Positions 1,970 through 40,258 of a stretch of DNA of 44,849 bases are shown here, in pieces. The position numbers and the translations under genes were made by a program. Below the pieces are notes generated by a model that was not told the DNA's origin, made no database searches, and was given only the letters and a program-made list of their open reading frames with translations. The stretch is from Escherichia phage EC115, in the sequence record NC_073080.1. One strand, given 5' to 3'. Each line of letters begins with the position of its first letter. Position 1 is the first letter of the stretch.

Positions 1970-3490
1970 ATGACCGTTAACGTTGACAACCAGCACCCGC
2001 TCTATGCGCGCATCGCGCCAGAGTGGAAAATGATCCGTGACTGCGTAGCGGGGGAGCGCGCCGTGAAGGCGTGCGGCCCCTTGTACCTGCCACACCCAGC
2101 AAGCGGCGACACCTCCGACCCGAAATCGCGTGCGCGCTATAAGGCGTATAAGCAACGTGCTGTCTTCCTGAACGCCACCGCCCGCACACTGAATGCACTG
2201 TTAGGCGTCGCCTTCGCCAAACCGGTGAGTATGGACCTTTCCGGGGCAATGGCTGACCTGATCGAAGACGTAGACGGCAGCGGGATGCCCCTGGCGCAAC
2301 TCCTGCGCGGCGCTATGTCGGAAGTGCTGCAATCAGGCCGTGCCGGGTTTATGGTCGACTACGACCGCCAGGCGCATTTTGACGAACTGGGTAACGTAGT
2401 ACCGCAGACCGCCGCTGAAATGGCAGCACACCGCCCGCTTATCCGCCTGTATACGGCTGAACAGATCATTAACTGGCGGCAGACCCACGGCGTCGACACG
2501 CTGATTGTGCTGAAGGAAACGGACGAAATCAGCACCGAAGACCCGGACGACTTCGCAAACCACGAAGTAACGATCTGGACCGAGCTTCGCATGATTGCAG
2601 GTAAGGCCCACGCCCGCCGCTGGTTTTACAACGCTGACACGTCCGAGGTGCAGATGGACTTGCCGCGAGGCTTCACCCGCACCGACCTTGTACCATTGGT
2701 GGATGCCTCCGGTAATGCGCTAACTCAACTGCCATTTTGCTGGTGTGGCGCGGTGGACAACAACGCGACACCGGACGCCGCACCGCTGGCGGATATTGCG
2801 TCCATCAACATTAAGCACTACAACGCCGAAGCGGACGTCGCCGAGATTGCGCACATCGTGGGGCAACCTACCCTCATTGCGACTGGTCTTACTCAATCAT
2901 GGGCGGACAAAAACCTGAAGGGCGGGATCGCGCTCGGGGCAACCAAGGGCGTTATCCTGGGCCAGAACATGGACGCCAAACTGCTTCAGGCGGAGGAGCG
3001 CAACTTGTCGGTTGCACTGTGTGAGCGCCGTGAATTGCAAATGGCTAAACTGGGCGCGGCCCTGGTCGAGAAGGGGACCGCACCTAAGACGGCAACCGAA
3101 GCGGCCTACGATGCGCAGACTGATAACAGTATCCTGTCACTGATTGCCGGTAACGTCGAGAAGGCTTTCAACCGGGCGCTGCAAATCGTCAAGCTGTTCA
3201 CGGGCGACACCGCAGATCAACGCGTAACGCTGAATAAGTTCTACACCGAAATCACGGTTGACGCACAGCTTATGACCGCAATGATGGCGGGTGTGCAGAC
3301 CGGTACGGTCCGGCTGGCGGACTTTATCAAGTGGATGATGGCCCAGGGCGTCATTGATGACTCGCAAACCGTCGAGCAGGTGGAAGACGAACTGCGAAAT
3401 CAGAATCCATTGCCTCAAATGTCCCCTGATGCGGTAGAATCTACCGAAGAAGACCCGGACAAGGTAGCGGACAATGGCGAAGACAATTAA
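1970..3490 (+). CDS. Portal protein
   Basis: 506 aa ORF directly after the large terminase; acidic C-terminus; assigned by size and position. Confidence 0.7.
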   Translation: MTVNVDNQHPLYARIAPEWKMIRDCVAGERAVKACGPLYLPHPASGDTSDPKSRARYKAYKQRAVFLNATARTLNALLGVAFAKPVSMDLSGAMADLIEDVDGSGMPLAQLLRGAMSEVLQSGRAGFMVDYDRQAHFDELGNVVPQTAAEMAAHRPLIRLYTAEQIINWRQTHGVDTLIVLKETDEISTEDPDDFANHEVTIWTELRMIAGKAHARRWFYNADTSEVQMDLPRGFTRTDLVPLVDASGNALTQLPFCWCGAVDNNATPDAAPLADIASINIKHYNAEADVAEIAHIVGQPTLIATGLTQSWADKNLKGGIALGATKGVILGQNMDAKLLQAEERNLSVALCERRELQMAKLGAALVEKGTAPKTATEAAYDAQTDNSILSLIAGNVEKAFNRALQIVKLFTGDTADQRVTLNKFYTEITVDAQLMTAMMAGVQTGTVRLADFIKWMMAQGVIDDSQTVEQVEDELRNQNPLPQMSPDAVESTEEDPDKVADNGEDN

Positions 3491-10288: not shown

Positions 10289-11014
10289 ATGGGTTATCAA
10301 CTTCCTAACGGGTCTAGCGTCCAGATTGGGTCCGTACTGGGCAACGGTATCGCTGTTACGGCAGCTACCAACGCCGCCGCGTCGATCTCTGATCTTACGA
10401 AAGGTTGCGTTATCACCTGCGCGGCTTCTCATGGCCTGCAAGTTGGTGACGTGGTTATGTTCACTAAAACCCCGTGGGTACGTGCGCTGAACCGCGCGTT
10501 TATCGTGGGTAAAGTGGCGACTAACGACGTTACACTGGCGCGCTTCGACACCTCGGACGTTACCAAATATCCTACCGGTGCTTTCGGCGTAGGCACACCA
10601 GGCGAGGTGGTGAAGGTGTCGAGCTTTATCGACTTCCCGTTTATCACTAACGTCGCCGTGTCTGGTGGCGACCAGCAGACTACTACCTTCCAGCCGTTGC
10701 AGGTGAATACCGCGATCAGTCTGAACACCACGAAAAACCCGTTGGTCCAGACCTACACTTTCACCCACGACGAAGAAGACCCGATCCGCCCGATTCTGGA
10801 AGACCTGGACGACACACAGAAAACCACTGTGATTAAGTTCACCAACCCGGCAGCGGCAAGCGGCAAAGGTGAGATCCGCATTTACCCGGCTAAGGTGTCT
10901 TTCCAGAAGATTCCATCTGCTGAAGTAAACAACGTGGAGACGGTGGAGTCCACCCTCACTATGCAGTCCGATATGGTTATTTACCGTAAGGATTTGGTCG
11001 AGGCGCTGTCGTAA
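10289..11014 (+). CDS. Major tail protein
   Basis: 241 aa Thr/Val-rich beta-type protein with strong RBS, followed by a terminator and then the G/GT chaperone genes. Confidence 0.65.
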   Translation: MGYQLPNGSSVQIGSVLGNGIAVTAATNAAASISDLTKGCVITCAASHGLQVGDVVMFTKTPWVRALNRAFIVGKVATNDVTLARFDTSDVTKYPTGAFGVGTPGEVVKVSSFIDFPFITNVAVSGGDQQTTTFQPLQVNTAISLNTTKNPLVQTYTFTHDEEDPIRPILEDLDDTQKTTVIKFTNPAAASGKGEIRIYPAKVSFQKIPSAEVNNVETVESTLTMQSDMVIYRKDLVEALS

Positions 11015-11043
11015 TTTGGTCGCTTAAATAGCGGGTGTTAATA

Positions 11044-11068
11044 TGGGGCCAGTACGGCCCCTTTTTTA
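11044..11068 (+). terminator. Intrinsic terminator after major tail gene
   Basis: GGGGCC-agta-CGGCCCC hairpin followed by a T-run. Confidence 0.6.
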
Positions 11069-11083
11069 TTGGAGAATTACATA

Positions 11084-11446
11084 ATGGCTAAATCACCACT
11101 CTTCACACTTGACCCTAAACCGACCTTTAAGCTGCCGATTGAGATCCCGCGCCCTGGTGAGAACGAACCGGGCAAAATGACGTTTACCGTGCGCCACCGC
11201 CCTATCGACGAATTTTCGCAGACCATGCAGGACACTGAGCGCAAATTGTCGGAGTATGACGACAATGACCCGGAAGGATTTAACGTTATGGTCGAGGCCA
11301 TCATGCACGTCGCTGAAGGCTGGAATTTGCCGGACGAATTTAATGCTGCCAACGTCCGCCGCCTGGTAGTCAACTACCCGCGCGCGTTCGGCGTGTTCCA
11401 TACGTCGTACTACCTCGAATTGATGGGGTTGCGTGAAAAAAACTAA
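11084..11446 (+). CDS. Tail assembly chaperone G
   Basis: 120 aa from ATG 11084 (GGAGA RBS; track ORF begins at a TTG at 11069); acidic; ends two codons after an A_AAA_AAC slippery heptamer. Confidence 0.7.
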   Translation: MAKSPLFTLDPKPTFKLPIEIPRPGENEPGKMTFTVRHRPIDEFSQTMQDTERKLSEYDDNDPEGFNVMVEAIMHVAEGWNLPDEFNAANVRRLVVNYPRAFGVFHTSYYLELMGLREKN

Positions 11447-11760
11447 TTGAGGCGGCGCGGCGCTTTTATGGCCCGCCGCCACCCTCCGAAGATTTAGCCG
11501 CAAGTTTATGGGGCGCGACACCTGAAGACGTGTGTCCACCCGTTGCGCTGTGGCCCGACAACGCGAAGGTAGTCGCAGTCTTCACAGATTGCTCCACGCA
11601 ATGGCGTACCGGATTTGGTGGCGCATACGGCATCGACTACGGCGTACTGGAATGGTTATTTAAGATGCACGGCATCGAAAACGCGCAACGTGCGTTTAAA
11701 GATATCAAGCTAATGGAACGCGTTGCGCTGGATGAGATGGCGCGGCAGAACCCCGCATAA
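11084..11760 (+). CDS. Tail assembly chaperone GT (-1 frameshift fusion product)
   Basis: The -1 frame is open from 11443 to the stop at 11760 (includes track ORF 11530..11760); slippery site at 11437-11443 and GC-rich stem-loop about 8 nt downstream. Confidence 0.6.
11437..11480 (+). other. Programmed -1 ribosomal frameshift site (slippery heptamer plus stem-loop)
   Basis: A_AAA_AAC in the G frame, followed by GGCGGCG...CGCCGCC hairpin. Confidence 0.6.
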
Positions 11761-11764
11761 CGAA

Positions 11765-12076
11765 GCGGGACAGGCGGGACGTCCCGTTTTGTCCCGCCAC
11801 CATTAAACCGCATATATACTCACTTTCATTGCATAAACTAAAAGCGGGACAGGGGTGCTGTCCCGATCTGTCCCGCCCCTCAAAAGTGAATGGCTATGCG
11901 GTTTTTCTGCATAAAACAAACGGGACAGAAAGCGGGACAGAATGAGGCGGGACAAAGCGGGACAGCACCCCTGTCCCAGTCAGTGCTGCCGCTGGTTTTA
12001 GCCGATCGGGACAGGCGGGACAAAGCCCAGTCTTTCAGACTAGACGGGGGTCAATGGCCCCCCTCGTCTGAGACTG
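11765..12076. repeat. Iteron array: about 13 copies of GCGGGACA(G/A) in both orientations plus a ~48 bp imperfect palindrome
   Basis: Direct and inverted GGGACAG copies, including GGGACAG-N5-CTGTCCC and GGGACGTCCC palindromes; ends with AGTCTTTCAGACTAGACGGGGG-N7-CCCCCCTCGTCTGAGACTG; 33-mer shared exactly with the array at 39942-40099. Confidence 0.75.
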
Positions 12077-12144
12077 AATAAGGTTTGTTTTAAATTCGCT
12101 GATACAATGACCGACGGCAACTGCATAAAAAGGGGGACTGCATA

Positions 12145-14787
12145 ATGGCAGATCAGGCAGCGGGCATCACGCTCAAGGCGGACGTCGCGCAAATTAAAAC
12201 GGCTAATACTGTGCTGGACACATTCGCGCAGAAATCCGAGAACACAGAACAGAAAGTAAAGAAATTAAACGACACACTCGGCAAGTCGAAAAAGGTTACT
12301 GGCGACGCCGCGGGCGGAATGGAAAAGTTAGCGACTGAATCGCAGCGCGCCGCCGACGGCATGACGAAACAGGAGCGACTAGCCAGCCGATTAGGCATGT
12401 CGACCAAAAACCTGGGATTTGCTTCACGGAACGCGGCATTCCAGTTACAGGATATTGCGGTAACGCTTGAGATGGGTATGCCGGTGCACCGCGTCATGCT
12501 TCAGCAGTTACCACAGCTAACCGGCGCATTCGGCGGATTAGGTAACACGCTGCGTTATGTTGCGGGCTTCCTCGGCCCAGTAGGGATCGGACTTGCGGCA
12601 GTAACGGCGACGTTAGGCGTGGGCGTGGCAATCACGTCACGGGCAGAGAACCAGGTAGCCGCGCTTAATAAGACGCTGGCGCTGTCCGGTAATATTTCAG
12701 GCCTCACAGCTAACCAGATCCTTGTGCTGTCCGAGAACGCTGAGCGCATGGGCGGGTCATTTCGCAAGACGCGTGACACAATCCAGGCGCTGGCGGCGGC
12801 GGGTGTGAAAGCGGGTGGTGACTTCGGCGCATTGGCTAAGGTAGTTAATGACTTTGCGAAGGTGTCCAGCCAGCCGATCGAGGATGTGGTGGCGGCGGTG
12901 GCGAAGCTGTCAACCGACCCCGTTGGCGGACTGCGTGCGCTGGCGGATAAGTATCACGTCGTAAACGAAGCGCAGATCCAGCAGGTACAGTCGCTCGTTG
13001 ATGCGGGTCGTGAGACAGACGCAGTTGCGTTGGCTAACAAAACAGCCGCTGCGTCGTTCACCAGTATGACCAATGAGATCAAGGCGAACATGGGTACGCT
13101 TGAGCGATCTATGAACGTCGTCACATCGGCAGCCAAATCAATGTGGGATGCCATCCTGGATGTGGGCCGCGCGCAGTCCTCCAATGAGTCCGAGATGAAA
13201 GCGCGCGAATCACTACAGCGCATGACCACGGCTTACTATGCCGAGATGAAAGCGGTAAACGCTGCCGGTGGGGTAATGACTGAAGCGCAGAAAGCACGTA
13301 TTAACATGCTTTACAGCGAACTGGTCGCCCAGGAAAAAGTGGTGGCGTCGCTCACCCTGCGTAACCGTGCTGAGCGAGACAACGCCCGCGCCGCAGACGA
13401 ATCCGCAAAGGCGAACGAGGAGGCCAACCGCACTGCCCGTGACCGCGCCGCGTTCGAGAAGGAATACGCCACCAACGCTAAGAAGCGCGCCGACGAGATC
13501 GCCCGCCTCAATTTGCTGAATAAGCGCGGCGTTATTGATGAGAAAGAACTAGCCGAGGCGGTGAAGCAGGTAAACGAGCGGTACAAAGACCCAGCCCCGA
13601 AAAAGGCCGCGGCTGTTCGCGTGGATGCCGGTATGAAAATGCTGGAAGTCGCACGGAGCGAACTGGCCCAGCTTCGAGAATCCGGCAAGCAGATCGAAGC
13701 CAACGCGTCTACGCAGACCCGCACGCAACGCGCTCAAGCGGCCTTAAACAAGCTGATCGCCGACAATGAGCAGTTAATCGCTGCGAGCAAAGAAAGAGCG
13801 CTAACGGCAGCAGAAAAGCAGCAATTAGTCGAGTTCGGGCGCGTGAAGGAAGTCCGCGAGCAGATCGTCGAAGAAGCCAAATTGCTGGATGCGAAAGAGC
13901 AGCAGGTTAAGGCGCACGCGCAGATCGATGCCTTCGTTAAGAACCAGAACGCCGAACTAAAAGCCACCGCCGCGGGGTATGCGCTTTCCACTCGCGAAGC
14001 GGCAAACCTGCGCGAAGAATTGCAGCTAATTGACCGCCTGAAGCGGGTTGGCGCTAACGATACCGATATTGACAAGGCGGTGTCTAAGCTGCGAGAAGTG
14101 CAGGAAGCACAGACCGGCGCTAACGCCTCGTTATGGGATGGATTCAGTCGCGGGCTTAAGGATAGCGTGGATGAAATGGGTAACGGATATACGCAGATGG
14201 CGTCGCTCACGAAATTTACATTCAGCGCTATGCAGGACACGATGAACGAGTTTTTCGAGACTGGTAAGCTGAACGCAAAGGATATGGTTAAGTCCATCCT
14301 GAGCGAATTAATCAAGCTGGCTACCTCGCAGGCGTTCAAGTCCATCGTTAGCGCTTTCGGTGGTGACGGCGGCAAAAACGGATTGTTCGGCGCTATCTTC
14401 TCTGGCCTCACTAAGAATGCGGACGGCGGAGCGTACACAGGCGGCAATCTCGCGGCCTATTCGGGGAAAGTGGTAAGCCAGCCTACCTTTTTCAGTTATG
14501 GCGTCCAGGCGTTCGCTAAGGGCGCTGGGTTGATGGGTGAGGCTGGACCCGAGGCCATCATGCCACTGAAGCGCGGGCCGGACGGGAAACTGGGCGTTGC
14601 CGCGTCTGGCGCAGGCGGTGGTATGGTCGTGACGACTAACGTTTACACGGGGACCGGTAAGACGGACACCAGTGTTAGCGGGCCAGACCCACGTACCGCG
14701 CAGGCGTTCGGCAAGCAAATCACCGAGGCGGTGAAGTCCGAGATCGTGAAAGCGACTAAACCAGGTGGTGTACTTTACAAACGATGA
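12145..14787 (+). CDS. Tail tape measure protein
   Basis: 880 aa, Ala/Gln-rich coiled-coil with Gly-rich C-terminal region; follows G/GT and precedes the M-L-K-I-J block. Confidence 0.9.
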   Translation: MADQAAGITLKADVAQIKTANTVLDTFAQKSENTEQKVKKLNDTLGKSKKVTGDAAGGMEKLATESQRAADGMTKQERLASRLGMSTKNLGFASRNAAFQLQDIAVTLEMGMPVHRVMLQQLPQLTGAFGGLGNTLRYVAGFLGPVGIGLAAVTATLGVGVAITSRAENQVAALNKTLALSGNISGLTANQILVLSENAERMGGSFRKTRDTIQALAAAGVKAGGDFGALAKVVNDFAKVSSQPIEDVVAAVAKLSTDPVGGLRALADKYHVVNEAQIQQVQSLVDAGRETDAVALANKTAAASFTSMTNEIKANMGTLERSMNVVTSAAKSMWDAILDVGRAQSSNESEMKARESLQRMTTAYYAEMKAVNAAGGVMTEAQKARINMLYSELVAQEKVVASLTLRNRAERDNARAADESAKANEEANRTARDRAAFEKEYATNAKKRADEIARLNLLNKRGVIDEKELAEAVKQVNERYKDPAPKKAAAVRVDAGMKMLEVARSELAQLRESGKQIEANASTQTRTQRAQAALNKLIADNEQLIAASKERALTAAEKQQLVEFGRVKEVREQIVEEAKLLDAKEQQVKAHAQIDAFVKNQNAELKATAAGYALSTREAANLREELQLIDRLKRVGANDTDIDKAVSKLREVQEAQTGANASLWDGFSRGLKDSVDEMGNGYTQMASLTKFTFSAMQDTMNEFFETGKLNAKDMVKSILSELIKLATSQAFKSIVSAFGGDGGKNGLFGAIFSGLTKNADGGAYTGGNLAAYSGKVVSQPTFFSYGVQAFAKGAGLMGEAGPEAIMPLKRGPDGKLGVAASGAGGGMVVTTNVYTGTGKTDTSVSGPDPRTAQAFGKQITEAVKSEIVKATKPGGVLYKR

Positions 14788-39835: not shown

Positions 39836-39941
39836 ATTTTGCGCGCATTGGTTGCCATTTTGAGTGTTTTTAGCTGGTAGCATTGGTTGCCGTGTAGTGT
39901 GAATATAATGCATAGTTATGCAATAAAACTGCATAAAGTAA

Positions 39942-40099
39942 GCGGGACAAAAAGCGGGACAAACAGGAGGCGGGACAAAGCGGGACAGCACCCCTGTCCC
40001 GCCCCGGATGACGCGGCCTGACGAGGAGCGGGACAGCGGGACAGCACCCCAGTCTTTCAGACTAGACGGGGGGTCTGTCACCCCCCTCGTCTGAGACTG
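39942..40099. repeat. Second iteron array: GCGGGACA(A/G) repeats plus the same ~48 bp imperfect palindrome
   Basis: Six or more GCGGGACA copies; shares GCGGGACAAAGCGGGACAGCACCCCTGTCCC and AGTCTTTCAGACTAGACGGGGG...CCCCCCTCGTCTGAGACTG with the array at 11765-12076. Confidence 0.75.
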
Positions 40100-40258
40100 C
40101 ATAAAATCCAGGATTGCATAACGCACGGCAGCATGTTGCGGATTGCGGTCGTCGATGAACTAGGCAACCAATGCGAGGTGCAGAATGGCGGGCGGGAAAT
40201 GCAGTTTGCAGTCACAGCAGATAGCGATCAACTTTTTCATGCGCGTGATTAATATTGG

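What the first reader, a model, noticed from the sequence alone, without database searches (positions are those of the whole stretch)
11437..11480. Canonical -1 programmed frameshift (A_AAA_AAC plus downstream hairpin) generating a G-T fusion chaperone
The G ORF ends two codons after the heptamer A_AAA_AAC; the -1 frame is open from 11443 to 11760, and a GC-rich stem-loop (GGCGGCG...CGCCGCC) starts about 8 nt downstream, the optimal spacing for a stimulatory structure. This is the conserved tail-chaperone frameshift of long-tailed phages.
Basis: partly seen in the sequence, partly recalled or inferred. Interest (0 to 1): 0.45.

Follow-up and report, generated by a model that had tools for sequence, protein, structure and literature searches.

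The report
Tail chaperone G-T frameshift site
This is the expected, but unannotated, ribosomal -1 frameshift site that lets an E. coli siphophage (genus Dhillonvirus) make a short and a long form of its tail assembly chaperone from one message; it is a well-known kind of signal and is ordinary.

Summary
The window is a Dhillonvirus, 99.9% identical to Escherichia phage vB_EcoS_011D5.

- **Gene G:** 11084-11446, 120 aa, Pfam Phage_TAC_4. It lies between the major tail protein and tape measure genes.
- **Slip site:** G ends ...GAA AAA AAC TAA. The -1 frame is closed by TGA at 11434-36 and open from 11437 to 11757. The two frames overlap by only 10 nt, which is exactly the heptamer A_AAA_AAC (11437-43).
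- **T extension:** 105 codons, Pfam DUF1799. It has no start codon for its first 29 codons (first is GTG 11530), yet it aligns as protein from its first codon with relatives as distant as phage T1.
- **Conservation:** 74 of 80 related loci keep A_AAA_AAC followed directly by a stop. The others carry G_GGA_AAC or an A_AAG tetramer.
- **Hairpin:** 11451-80, 7-nt spacer, -22 kcal/mol. It is the second most stable local fold in 44.8 kb. It shows suppressed synonymous variation and beats about 98% of synonymous recodings. It is lineage-specific, not family-wide.

Verdict: a new, unannotated member of a known kind. Low interest.

The parts
10289..11014 (+). Major tail (tube) protein gene, the upstream neighbour that defines the synteny
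   Evidence: Pfam Phage_tail_3 at 2.4e-33 and phrog_584 'major tail protein' at 4.8e-75. Annotated as major tail protein in MT478993.
11045..11061 (+). Terminator-like GC hairpin followed by a T-run, between the tail tube gene and G. Context only; a possible partial terminator that lowers G expression.
   Evidence: GGGGCCAGTACGGCCCC TTTTTTATTG, found by the consensus scan.
11072..11075 (+). Shine-Dalgarno-like GGAG, 8 nt upstream of the G start codon
   Evidence: Read directly from the sequence. The ATG at 11084 is the start used in GenBank records of near-identical phages.
11084..11446 (+). Gene G: tail assembly chaperone, 120 aa, 13.9 kDa, the product of standard decoding
   Evidence: Pfam PF08748 Phage_TAC_4 at 2.2e-23 over its full length. 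The C-terminus R-x-K-N is conserved across the family. Mass.
11434..11436 (+). TGA stop in the -1 frame that closes the T frame immediately upstream of the slip site
   Evidence: Translation of the -1 frame and frame analysis.
11437..11443 (+). Slippery heptamer A_AAA_AAC (X_XXY_YYZ in the G frame)
   Evidence: It is the only in-frame heptamer position in the 10-nt overlap. It is invariant in every complete Dhillonvirus locus examined here; the low-quality Zar3M record reads AAAAAAT. It is present, directly followed by a stop, in 74 of 80 family loci. The codon before it always ends in A although its amino acid varies among E, V, A and T.
11444..11446 (+). G stop codon TAA, directly abutting the heptamer
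   Evidence: TAA or TGA sits at this position in relatives.
11444..11450 (+). 7-nt spacer between the heptamer and the hairpin
   Evidence: Dhillonvirus, T1-like and Ralstonia relatives have the same 7-nt spacing.
11451..11480 (+). Putative stimulatory RNA hairpin: lower stem GGCGGCG 11451-57 / CGCCGCC 11474-80; upper stem 11459-61 / 11471-73 plus 11463:11470; loop UUUUAU 11464-69
   Evidence: MFE is -22.1 kcal/mol. It is the second most stable 32-nt fold on the + strand of the window. Ten of 11 T-frame third positions at 11448-78 are invariant, against 68% variable overall. The native fold is more stable than 97.6% of synonymous recodings. The helix is kept in T1-like phages with U-A/U-G replacing C-G/G-C. 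Relatives at 60% identity re-form the upper stem from different nucleotides.
11443..11760 (+). T extension in the -1 frame: 105 codons plus stop, DUF1799. It is translated only as the C-terminal half of G-T. Predicted fusion: join(11084..11443, 11443..11760), 225 aa, 25.6 kDa, junction ...LREKN|LIEAARR...
   Evidence: Pfam PF08809 DUF1799 at 3e-21 and phrog_680 at 3.1e-31. The first start codon in this frame is GTG 11530. The protein alignment is colinear from the first codon across families. Mass.
12145..14787 (+). Tape measure protein gene, the downstream neighbour, separated from T by a 384-nt repeat-rich gap
   Evidence: Pfam TMP_2 at 2.6e-43 and Tape_meas_lam_C at 4.6e-14.

Best explanation

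**What most ribosomes do.** They translate G (11084-11443) and terminate at TAA 11444-46, giving the 120-aa chaperone.

**What a minority do.** They slip back one base on A_AAA_AAC (11437-43). tRNA-Lys re-pairs from AAA to AAA and tRNA-Asn from AAC to AAA. These ribosomes miss the stop and read CUA AUU GAG... to 11757. The product is a 225-aa G-T protein with junction ...REKN-LIEAARR....

**Likely stimulators (inferred).** The GC-rich hairpin 7 nt downstream (11451-80) probably raises slippage by resisting unwinding while the heptamer is in the decoding centre. The stop codon directly after the heptamer may add a pause.

**Function, by analogy with lambda gpG/gpGT.** Many G copies and a few G-T copies coat the tape measure protein, and the T domain recruits the tail tube protein.

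**Shown here:** the sequence anatomy, the homology, the conservation and the signatures of RNA-level selection.

**Inferred:** that slippage occurs, its efficiency, the stimulatory role of the hairpin, and the assembly function.
For: 1. **Identity and synteny.** The window is 99.9% identical to phage vB_EcoS_011D5, genus Dhillonvirus. The gene order is Phage_tail_3, Phage_TAC_4, DUF1799, TMP_2.
2. **Geometry.** The -1 frame is closed by TGA 11434-36 and G by TAA 11444-46. Only the heptamer lies in the overlap. In-frame XXXYYYZ density in long ORFs is 0.0015 per codon.
3. **T needs G.** The first ATG/GTG/TTG in the T frame is 29 codons downstream of the slip site (codon 32 of the open -1 frame), and no clear Shine-Dalgarno motif is visible in the 18 nt upstream of it. 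In relatives the first start codon falls anywhere from codon 7 to codon 44. The T-frame protein nevertheless aligns from its first codons (KKL...) in 13 diverse lineages.
4. **Comparative conservation.**
   - All complete Dhillonvirus loci examined here keep GAAAAAAAC + stop.
   - 74 of 80 family loci from IMG/VR keep A_AAA_AAC + stop, including T1 at 38% protein identity.
   - A Ralstonia phage has G_GGA_AAC + TGA.
   - Klebsiella phiKp_24-like phages and another clade have an in-frame A_AAG tetramer.
   - The codon before the heptamer always ends in A even though its amino acid varies.
5. **Fused family.** phrog_17368 (213 positions) matches G at positions 1-107 and T at 147-212.
6. **Hairpin.**
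   - It is the second most stable 32-nt fold in 44.8 kb.
   - Synonymous variation is lowest across the whole G-T region at 11432-79 (5 variable columns of 48, against about 14 typical). Ten of 11 third positions are invariant.
   - Synonymous-recoding p values are 0.024 (window), 0.035 and 0.0085 (relatives at 60% identity), 0.0005 (T1), and under 0.0005 (Henu7; none of 2000 recodings folded as well).
   - Over 54 distinct junctions, 76% of helix cells are paired, against 65% after shuffling (0/500) and 37-54% for slid controls. Both-side changes occur at two pairs.
7. **Local conservation.** The 60-nt cassette is at least 95% identical in 148 of 156 Dhillonvirus records. The surrounding 1.9 kb reaches 95% in only 13 of 157.
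8. **Literature.**
   - A_AA.A_AA.C is a low-efficiency but genuinely used -1 motif in E. coli, in IS1 (PMC4066793).
   - The G-T frameshift is conserved in tailed phages (PMC5009743).
   - It has been predicted for T1-like homologues: Stevie (PMC4319613) and Rogue1 (PMC3496638).
Against: - There is no experimental evidence for this phage. None of about 20 GenBank/RefSeq records inspected annotates a joined CDS.
- A_AAA_AAC is inefficient in E. coli because the AAC-to-AAA re-pairing is non-cognate (PMC4066793).
- The hairpin z-score against dinucleotide shuffles is only -1.55.
- Within Dhillonvirus the lower stem never varies, so it gives no covariation there.
- The between-clade covariation may reflect very few evolutionary events, and it lies in coding sequence (Ala and Pro codons).
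- Several lineages with the same heptamer show no excess structure: Braunvirinae-like phages, the L046 group, Klebsiella and Ralstonia. The hairpin is therefore not required family-wide.
- The best 150 listed DUF1799 representatives (of 1151 hits) are all short stand-alone ORF calls. No natural in-frame fusion was seen among them.
Confidence: 0.9

Rival explanations
1. G and T are two separate proteins. T starts at its own codon (GTG 11530), as most GenBank records annotate it, and no frameshift takes place.
For: GenBank records annotate a 76-aa ORF at the equivalent of 11530-11760. The best 150 listed library homologues of T are all short stand-alone ORF calls.
Against: - No clear Shine-Dalgarno motif is visible in the 18 nt before GTG 11530 (ggcgcgacacctgaagac).
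- The 29 T-frame codons between the slip site and GTG 11530 are conserved as protein across families. DUF1799 and phrog_680 already match from T residues 25 and 13.
- The position of the first start codon is erratic among relatives, from codon 7 to 44.
- This reading does not explain the invariant heptamer, the A-ending preceding codon, or the suppressed synonymous variation.
Confidence: 0.04
2. G-T is made by transcriptional slippage. RNA polymerase inserts one extra A in the A7 run (11436-42), and standard translation of the edited mRNA gives ...REKKLIEAA....
For: There is a run of 7 A in Dhillonvirus and 6 A in T1-like phages. Two database genomes (L022, L073) differ by one A in exactly this run, which shows that the run is length-unstable at some level.
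Against: - From my own knowledge of the field, productive transcriptional slippage in bacteria generally needs runs of about 9 or more A/T; I did not check this in the papers read here.
- Relatives use G_GGA_AAC or an A_AAG tetramer, which have no long homopolymer. The family-level mechanism therefore looks ribosomal.
- A hairpin at a fixed 7-nt distance with signs of selection fits ribosomal slippage, not polymerase slippage.
Confidence: 0.04
3. The frameshift is real, but the hairpin is not a stimulator. It is a by-product of GC-rich Ala and Pro codons (E-A-A-R-R ... G-P-P-P-P).
For: - The stem arms encode conserved Ala-Ala and Pro-Pro, and GCG and CCG are common E. coli codons.
- The z-score against shuffles is only -1.55.
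- Several lineages with the same heptamer lack any excess structure.
- IS1 uses A_AAA_AAC with no established stimulator (PMC4066793).
Against: - The native fold is more stable than 96.5-100% of synonymous recodings in five lineages.
- Ten of 11 third positions in 11448-78 are invariant, against 68% variable overall.
- The fold ranks second of about 44,800 windows.
- The L115 relative encodes the identical peptide EAARRFYGPPPP with five synonymous differences, yet folds to -21.3 kcal/mol in the recoding-test segment, against -22.1 for the window.
- L054 loses the stem through synonymous GCC and CCA codons, so the protein sequence alone does not force the stem.
Confidence: 0.2
4. T is made by termination-reinitiation. 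Ribosomes that terminate at TAA 11444-46 restart at the overlapping AUU (11446-48) in the T frame.
For: UAAUU places an AUU codon in the T frame overlapping the stop. AUU initiation is documented for IS911 OrfB (cited in PMC4066793).
Against: The AUU is not conserved. T1-like relatives read CUA AAA CGG at this point, yet keep the heptamer and the colinear T protein. phrog_17368 spans both halves.
Confidence: 0.02

Closest known systems
Bacteriophage lambda gpG / gpGT tail assembly chaperones (Levin, Hendrix and Casjens 1993; Xu, Hendrix and Duda 2004, 2013, 2014; reviewed in PMC5009743)
   Same: - Same position, between the tail tube gene and the tape measure gene.
- Same layout: a short G ORF with a roughly 100-codon -1 frame extension that has no start of its own.
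- An X_XXY_YYZ heptamer lies near the end of G.
- The expected outcome is a low GT:G ratio.
   Different: - The heptamer is A_AAA_AAC, not G_GGA_AAG.
- The stop abuts the heptamer.
- A strong hairpin lies 7 nt downstream.
- G and T belong to different Pfam families (Phage_TAC_4 and DUF1799). The Pfam scan at E up to 1 returned no other family; from my own knowledge lambda's own families are Phage_TAC_2 and Phage_tail_T.
- A 384-nt non-coding gap separates T from the tape measure gene.
T1-like (Drexlerviridae) 'tape measure chaperones': Citrobacter phage Stevie (PMC4319613), phage Rogue1 genes 30/31 (PMC3496638), phage T1
   Same: - They are true homologues, with 28-42% identity in G and both halves aligning.
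- They share the same A_AAA_AAC + stop.
- Many have the same 7-nt spacer and a GGCGG/CCGCC-cored hairpin at the same columns.
- A G-T frameshift has already been proposed for them in print.
   Different: - The A-run is A6 rather than A7.
- The upper helix pairs are U-A/U-G instead of C-G/G-C.
- Some subfamilies (Braunvirinae-like) lack the hairpin.
- T abuts the tape measure gene, with no long gap.
IS1 insA-insB' -1 frameshift (A_AAA_AAC; Escoubas et al. 1991, cited in PMC4066793)
   Same: It uses the same heptamer in the same host, E. coli. It is a proven low-level -1 frameshift that yields a fusion protein needed in small amounts.
   Different: It is a transposase, not a phage chaperone. IS1 has no established downstream stimulator (PMC4066793), whereas this site has a strong hairpin.
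E. coli dnaX gamma/tau frameshift signal
   Same: It is a -1 slip on an A-rich heptamer, with a stable hairpin a few nucleotides downstream that acts as stimulator.
   Different: - dnaX uses the highly efficient A_AAA_AAG plus an upstream Shine-Dalgarno-like stimulator, and shifts about 50% of ribosomes.
- The dnaX shifted product is shorter, not longer.
- Here no conserved upstream Shine-Dalgarno-like element was seen.

Membership tests
Tailed-phage tail assembly chaperone G/G-T with conserved -1 programmed frameshift (Xu et al. 2004 class) | The gene pair lies between the major tail (tube) protein gene and the tape measure protein gene | tested here: met
   Phage_tail_3 at 10289-11014, G at 11084-11446, T to 11760, TMP_2 at 12145-14787.
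Tailed-phage tail assembly chaperone G/G-T with conserved -1 programmed frameshift (Xu et al. 2004 class) | The downstream ORF is in the -1 frame, overlaps the end of G, and lacks its own initiation signals | tested here: met
   The overlap is 10 nt. The first start codon is 29 codons downstream of the slip site, with no clear Shine-Dalgarno motif in the 18 nt upstream. The start position is erratic in relatives.
Tailed-phage tail assembly chaperone G/G-T with conserved -1 programmed frameshift (Xu et al. 2004 class) | A slippery X_XXY_YYZ heptamer (or equivalent) lies in the G frame within the overlap | tested here: met
   A_AAA_AAC at 11437-43 occupies the only possible position.
Tailed-phage tail assembly chaperone G/G-T with conserved -1 programmed frameshift (Xu et al. 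2004 class) | The two-frame arrangement and slip site are conserved in divergent homologues | tested here: met
   74 of 80 loci have A_AAA_AAC + stop; the rest have G_GGA_AAC or A_AAG. 725 phage records cover at least 80% of the conceptual fusion, in two frames in the rows listed.
Tailed-phage tail assembly chaperone G/G-T with conserved -1 programmed frameshift (Xu et al. 2004 class) | G belongs to a recognised tail assembly chaperone protein family | tested here: met
   PF08748 Phage_TAC_4 at 2.2e-23, 83.3 bits against a cut-off of 21.1, over full length. The fold-level check failed: the AF2 model had pLDDT 64 and Foldseek found no PDB hit.
Tailed-phage tail assembly chaperone G/G-T with conserved -1 programmed frameshift (Xu et al. 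2004 class) | Both G and G-T are produced in a fixed low ratio, both are needed for tail assembly, and neither is present in virions | not testable with these tools
   This needs proteomics, reporter assays and genetics.
Lambda gpG / gpT sequence families | Detectable sequence homology to lambda gpG and gpT | tested here: not met
   The Pfam scan at E up to 1 returned only Phage_TAC_4 for G and only DUF1799 for T. No other tail-chaperone or T family was hit. This is an analogue and distant class member, not a member of lambda's own families.
-1 PRF signal with a 3' stimulatory hairpin (dnaX / IS3-type cassette) | A stable structure begins 5-9 nt after the heptamer | tested here: met
   The spacer is 7 nt and the fold is -22.1 kcal/mol. 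It is the second most stable 32-nt fold in the window.
-1 PRF signal with a 3' stimulatory hairpin (dnaX / IS3-type cassette) | The structure is under selection beyond protein coding (synonymous constraint, covariation) | tested here: met
   The caveat is that it is lineage-specific and rests on few independent events.
-1 PRF signal with a 3' stimulatory hairpin (dnaX / IS3-type cassette) | The structure measurably raises frameshift efficiency | not testable with these tools
   This needs a reporter assay with stem-disrupting and compensatory mutants.
-1 PRF signal with a 3' stimulatory hairpin (dnaX / IS3-type cassette) | An upstream Shine-Dalgarno-like stimulator, as in dnaX | tested here: inconclusive
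   GGGG at 11425-28 lies 8 nt upstream, but its last base is a variable Gly third position. T1-like relatives have unrelated sequence there.
Rfam-curated frameshift elements | A match to a curated RNA family at or near the gathering score | tested here: not met
   There was no relevant hit in 10900-12300 at E up to 1. The only matches were sub-threshold miRNA-like hits to an inverted repeat in the T-TMP gap.

The most novel reading that the evidence does not exclude
The stop codon that directly abuts the heptamer may be an integral part of the signal (a 'shifty stop'). It does so in 74 of 80 family loci, whether TAA or TGA. Under this reading slippage happens mainly when tRNA-Asn sits in the P site on AAC and the A site holds the slowly decoded stop. 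The G:G-T ratio would then be set by competition between release factor and -1 slippage. The lineage-specific hairpin would act as an evolvable tuner, present in Dhillonvirus and in Tunavirinae/Tempevirinae and absent in Braunvirinae-like phages. The chaperone ratio would then depend on host release-factor activity and growth state.
Probability: 0.2. Interest if true: 0.35.

Novelty: new member of a known kind. Interest (0 to 1): 0.15.

Why it matters
The main value is for annotation.

- None of the roughly 20 Dhillonvirus and related records I inspected, out of 157 Dhillonvirus and about 1000 related phage records, has the joined G-T CDS. G and T are labelled 'hypothetical protein', or wrongly 'tail length tape measure protein'.
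- Pfam DUF1799 can be read as the T domain of this chaperone family.
- The locus is also a clean natural example of the low-efficiency A_AAA_AAC heptamer in E. coli. It pairs an abutting stop with a hairpin that is present in some lineages and absent in others. That could serve as a small comparative system for studying how stimulators tune a fixed slip site.
- It does not open a new question.

Tried and rejected
- **Homologue search with the fusion.** The search for homologous proteins with the conceptual G-T fusion returned only 2 hits, both G-only proteins of 125 aa. They were still useful: their contigs gave relatives at 60% identity.
- **Representative-library search.** The T part alone gave 1151 hits, and the best 150 listed are all ORFs of 150 aa or fewer. 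No natural in-frame fusion was found among them.
- **Structure of G.** The PDB sequence search found nothing for G and only chance-level hits for T. The AlphaFold2 model from a 3-sequence alignment had mean pLDDT 64. Foldseek against the PDB gave no hit with E at or below 0.001. The fold-level chaperone check is therefore uninformative.
- **Other libraries.** NCBIfam gave no hit. Rfam gave no relevant family.
- **Pseudoknot.** The only complementarities between the hairpin interior and the next 80 nt are rich in G-U pairs or compete with the upper stem. No pseudoknot is claimed.
- **Divergent cassette.** Phage Zar3M looked like a divergent cassette (79.7% identity), but its sequence is full of N and is not informative.
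- **Heptamer frequency.** The genome-wide count of the heptamer (4 against 7.7 expected) does not support significance on its own. Only its position does.
- **Literature.** Xu et al. 2004 is not held in the library. No paper in the library mentions a frameshift in Dhillonvirus chaperone genes.
Full report
**What the window is.** A megablast of 10289-12200 finds 157 phage records. The best is Escherichia phage vB_EcoS_011D5 at 99.9% identity, genus Dhillonvirus. The local gene order is:
- major tail protein, 10289-11014 (Pfam Phage_tail_3, 2.4e-33);
- a 120-aa ORF, 11084-11446 (Pfam Phage_TAC_4 'phage tail assembly chaperone', 2.2e-23, full length);
- a -1 frame ORF ending at 11760 (Pfam DUF1799, 3e-21);
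- after a 384-nt gap, the tape measure protein, 12145-14787 (TMP_2, 2.6e-43).

**Checking the observation.**
- The sequence reads ...TTG CGT GAA AAA AAC TAA TTGA GGCGGCG C GGC G C TTTTAT G GCC CGCCGCC A....
- The heptamer A_AAA_AAC occupies 11437-43 in the G frame.
- The G stop TAA (11444-46) follows it directly.
- The -1 frame carries TGA at 11434-36 and is open from 11437 to 11757, with its stop at 11758-60.
- The region where a ribosome could change from G to T without meeting a stop is therefore 10 nt long. It holds exactly one in-frame heptamer position, and that position is filled by a slippery heptamer.
- AAAAAAC alone is not unusual in the window: 4 copies against 7.7 expected.
- In-frame XXXYYYZ occurs at only 0.0015 per codon in long ORFs.
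- Many ORFs have long -1 'extensions' simply because the next gene overlaps them. Among ORFs of at least 100 aa with a -1 frame extension of 60 or more codons, four carry an in-frame heptamer in the overlap. Of these, only G is a tail-chaperone homologue lying between the tail tube and tape measure genes, with its heptamer filling a 10-nt overlap.

**Evidence that T is translated as an extension of G.**
- The first ATG/GTG/TTG in the T frame is GTG 11530, 29 codons downstream of the slip site (codon 32 of the open -1 frame). No clear Shine-Dalgarno motif is visible in the 18 nt upstream of it.
- DUF1799 and phrog_680 already match from T-frame residues 25 and 13.
- The T-frame translations of 13 diverse relatives align without gaps from the first codons after the slip site (KKL[I/K][E/R]A...). 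In those relatives the first possible start codon falls anywhere between codon 7 and codon 44.
- phrog_17368, a 213-position profile, matches G at positions 1-107 and T at 147-212. A family of full-length G-T proteins therefore exists in phage annotations.

**Comparative evidence for the slip site.**
- Every complete Dhillonvirus locus retrieved here keeps GAAAAAAAC followed by TAA or TGA. The low-quality Zar3M record reads AAAAAAT.
- A tblastn with the conceptual fusion finds 1053 phage records. In 725 of them the match covers at least 80% of the query, and in the rows listed the G and T halves lie in two frames.
- Of 80 family loci from IMG/VR, 74 have A_AAA_AAC directly followed by a stop. 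These include T1 and other Drexlerviridae at 28-42% G identity.
- A Ralstonia phage has G_GGA_AAC TGA. Klebsiella phiKp_24-like phages (CAA AAG xxx TAA) and another clade (GCA AAG GTC TAA) have the in-frame A_AAG tetramer. Sharma et al. rank A_AAG as the most shift-prone tetramer in E. coli (PMC4066793).
- The codon before the heptamer encodes E, V, A or T in different lineages but always ends in A. Lys is always AAA and Asn always AAC. This is nucleotide-level conservation, not amino-acid conservation.
- Replacement of one ribosomal slip motif by another, with no long homopolymer, argues for ribosomal rather than transcriptional slippage.

**The hairpin.**
- RNAfold gives a 7-bp lower stem (11451-57 with 11474-80), a one-base bulge, and a short upper stem, at -22.1 kcal/mol. 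The spacer to the heptamer is 7 nt.
- Against dinucleotide shuffles of the same GC-rich 64 nt, the z-score is only -1.55.
- Scanning every 32-nt window of the + strand shows only two places in 44.8 kb that fold this well.
- Among 20 distinct Dhillonvirus G-T sequences, 68% of third codon positions vary. At 11448-11478 only 1 of 11 does. The 48-nt window 11432-79 has the fewest variable columns of the whole G-T region, 5 against about 14 typical.
- The 60-nt cassette is at least 95% identical in 148 of 156 records. The surrounding 1.9 kb reaches that level in only 13 of 157.
- When the 12 codons under the hairpin are recoded synonymously with phage codon usage, the native fold is more stable than:
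  - 97.6% of recodings in the window;
  - 96.5% and 99.2% in two relatives at 60% identity from public read assemblies;
  - 99.95% in T1;
  - all 2000 recodings in Henu7.
- One of the 60% relatives encodes the identical peptide EAARRFYGPPPP with five synonymous differences. It re-forms an upper stem in a different register.
- Across 54 distinct junction sequences, a helix at fixed columns (+8..+15 with +30..+37) is paired in 76% of cells. Column shuffles give 65% (0 of 500 reach the observed value) and slid controls give 37-54%. C-G/G-C pairs in Dhillonvirus are replaced by U-A/U-G in T1-like phages.
- These counts are cells, not independent events, and the arms code for Ala and Pro. I therefore rate the covariation as supportive, not decisive.
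- Braunvirinae-like phages, the L046 group, and the Klebsiella and Ralstonia lineages show no excess structure. The hairpin is a lineage-specific addition to a family-wide slip site.
- No convincing pseudoknot partner was found, and no Rfam family matches.

**Mechanism.**
- The best-supported reading is the classical -1 programmed ribosomal frameshift.
- Standard decoding yields G, 120 aa and 13.9 kDa.
- A minority of ribosomes slip on A_AAA_AAC and produce G-T, 225 aa and 25.6 kDa, with junction ...LREKN|LIEAARR....
- According to Sharma et al. 2014 (PMC4066793) and Atkins et al. 2016 (PMC5009743), A_AA.A_AA.C is efficient in eukaryotes but of low efficiency in E. coli, because the AAC-to-AAA re-pairing is non-cognate. 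IS1 nevertheless uses it to make a rare fusion protein.
- A weak heptamer, a strong hairpin and an abutting stop would plausibly give the low-percent frameshifting that a lambda-like G:GT ratio of about 30:1 (PMC5009743) requires.
- The assembly role is inferred from lambda: G and the G part of G-T bind the tape measure protein, and T recruits the tube protein.

**Rivals.**
- Independent initiation of T, termination-reinitiation at the overlapping AUU, and transcriptional slippage at the A7 run are each contradicted by the comparative data above.
- The hairpin being a by-product of coding remains possible at about 0.2.

**Comparison with what is known.**
- Functionally this belongs to the G/G-T class defined by Levin et al. 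1993 and Xu et al. 2004.
- The proteins are not in lambda's own Pfam families.
- They are homologues of the T1-like 'tape measure chaperones'. A conserved frameshift has been stated for these in phage Stevie (PMC4319613) and a G-T-type fusion suggested for Rogue1 (PMC3496638).
- I found no paper in the library that mentions a frameshift in Dhillonvirus chaperone genes.
- None of about 20 GenBank/RefSeq records inspected annotates a joined CDS. G and T are 'hypothetical protein', or through PHROG naming 'tail length tape measure protein'.

**Verdict.** The finding is correct and well supported computationally, and it is an unannotated instance of a textbook phenomenon. Novelty: new member of a known kind. 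Interest: 0.15.

Noticed in passing
window 11761-12144 and 39929-40105: The motif CGGGACA (often GCGGGACAG) occurs 25 times against 5.95 expected, and 0 of 100 shuffles reach 25. It falls in two tight clusters: 11 copies in both orientations in the 384-nt gap between T and the tape measure gene, and 7 copies near 40 kb. The two clusters belong to a module of about 180 nt that is duplicated with about 82% mean column identity over the whole 249-column alignment of the two regions. The module starts with CTGCATAAA and carries several GCGGGACA repeats and the palindrome GGGACAGCACCCCTGTCCC. It ends in a long hairpin, CAGTCTTTCAGACTAGACGGGGG...CCCCCCTCGTCTGAGACTG, whose stems are identical and whose loops differ. 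It is a candidate regulator-binding or promoter-terminator module, or a structured RNA. Megablast reported 2 places per record in the other Dhillonviruses, possibly because the query contains this repeat.
   Followed up: partly
window 11045-11061: A strong terminator-like hairpin (GGGGCCAGTACGGCCCC followed by TTTTTTATTG) lies between the major tail protein gene and G. It would fit a partial terminator that lowers chaperone expression relative to the tube protein.
   Followed up: no
window 2050-2081: This is the most stable 32-nt local RNA fold on the + strand of the whole window (GGGGGAGCGCGCCGUGAAGGCGUGCGGCCCCU, -24.4 kcal/mol). Its function was not examined.
   Followed up: no
L022:1800-1860 (Escherichia phage 2725-N35, MN840485) and L073:1495-1560 (IMGVR_UViG_2974632794_000001): Two unrelated T1-like genomes have GTAAAAACTAA (A5) where their relatives have A6. 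This removes the G stop and puts T in the +1 frame. It is probably a homopolymer sequencing error at the slippery run. Alternatively it is real length instability of the run.
   Followed up: partly
window 11084-11760; RefSeq records NC_027383, NC_012223, NC_019419, NC_016566 and PHROGs 569, 680, 17368: G and T are named 'tail length tape measure protein' in PHROGs and in several RefSeq Dhillonvirus and Drexlerviridae records. This is a misnomer for the chaperone pair. Pfam still lists the T part as DUF1799.
   Followed up: yes
L118 (Escherichia phage vB_EcoS_Zar3M, NC_073065): This RefSeq Dhillonvirus genome has frequent N characters through the G-T junction. That explains its apparently low identity (79.7%). 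Its heptamer reads AAAAAAT.
   Followed up: yes
L031:1925-2497 (Escherichia phage vB_EcoS-CHD2B1, MZ234026): In this record the T region and the repeat-rich T-TMP gap are annotated as five small 'hypothetical protein' CDSs. These are probably over-calls in non-coding repeat DNA and in a fragmented T frame.
   Followed up: no
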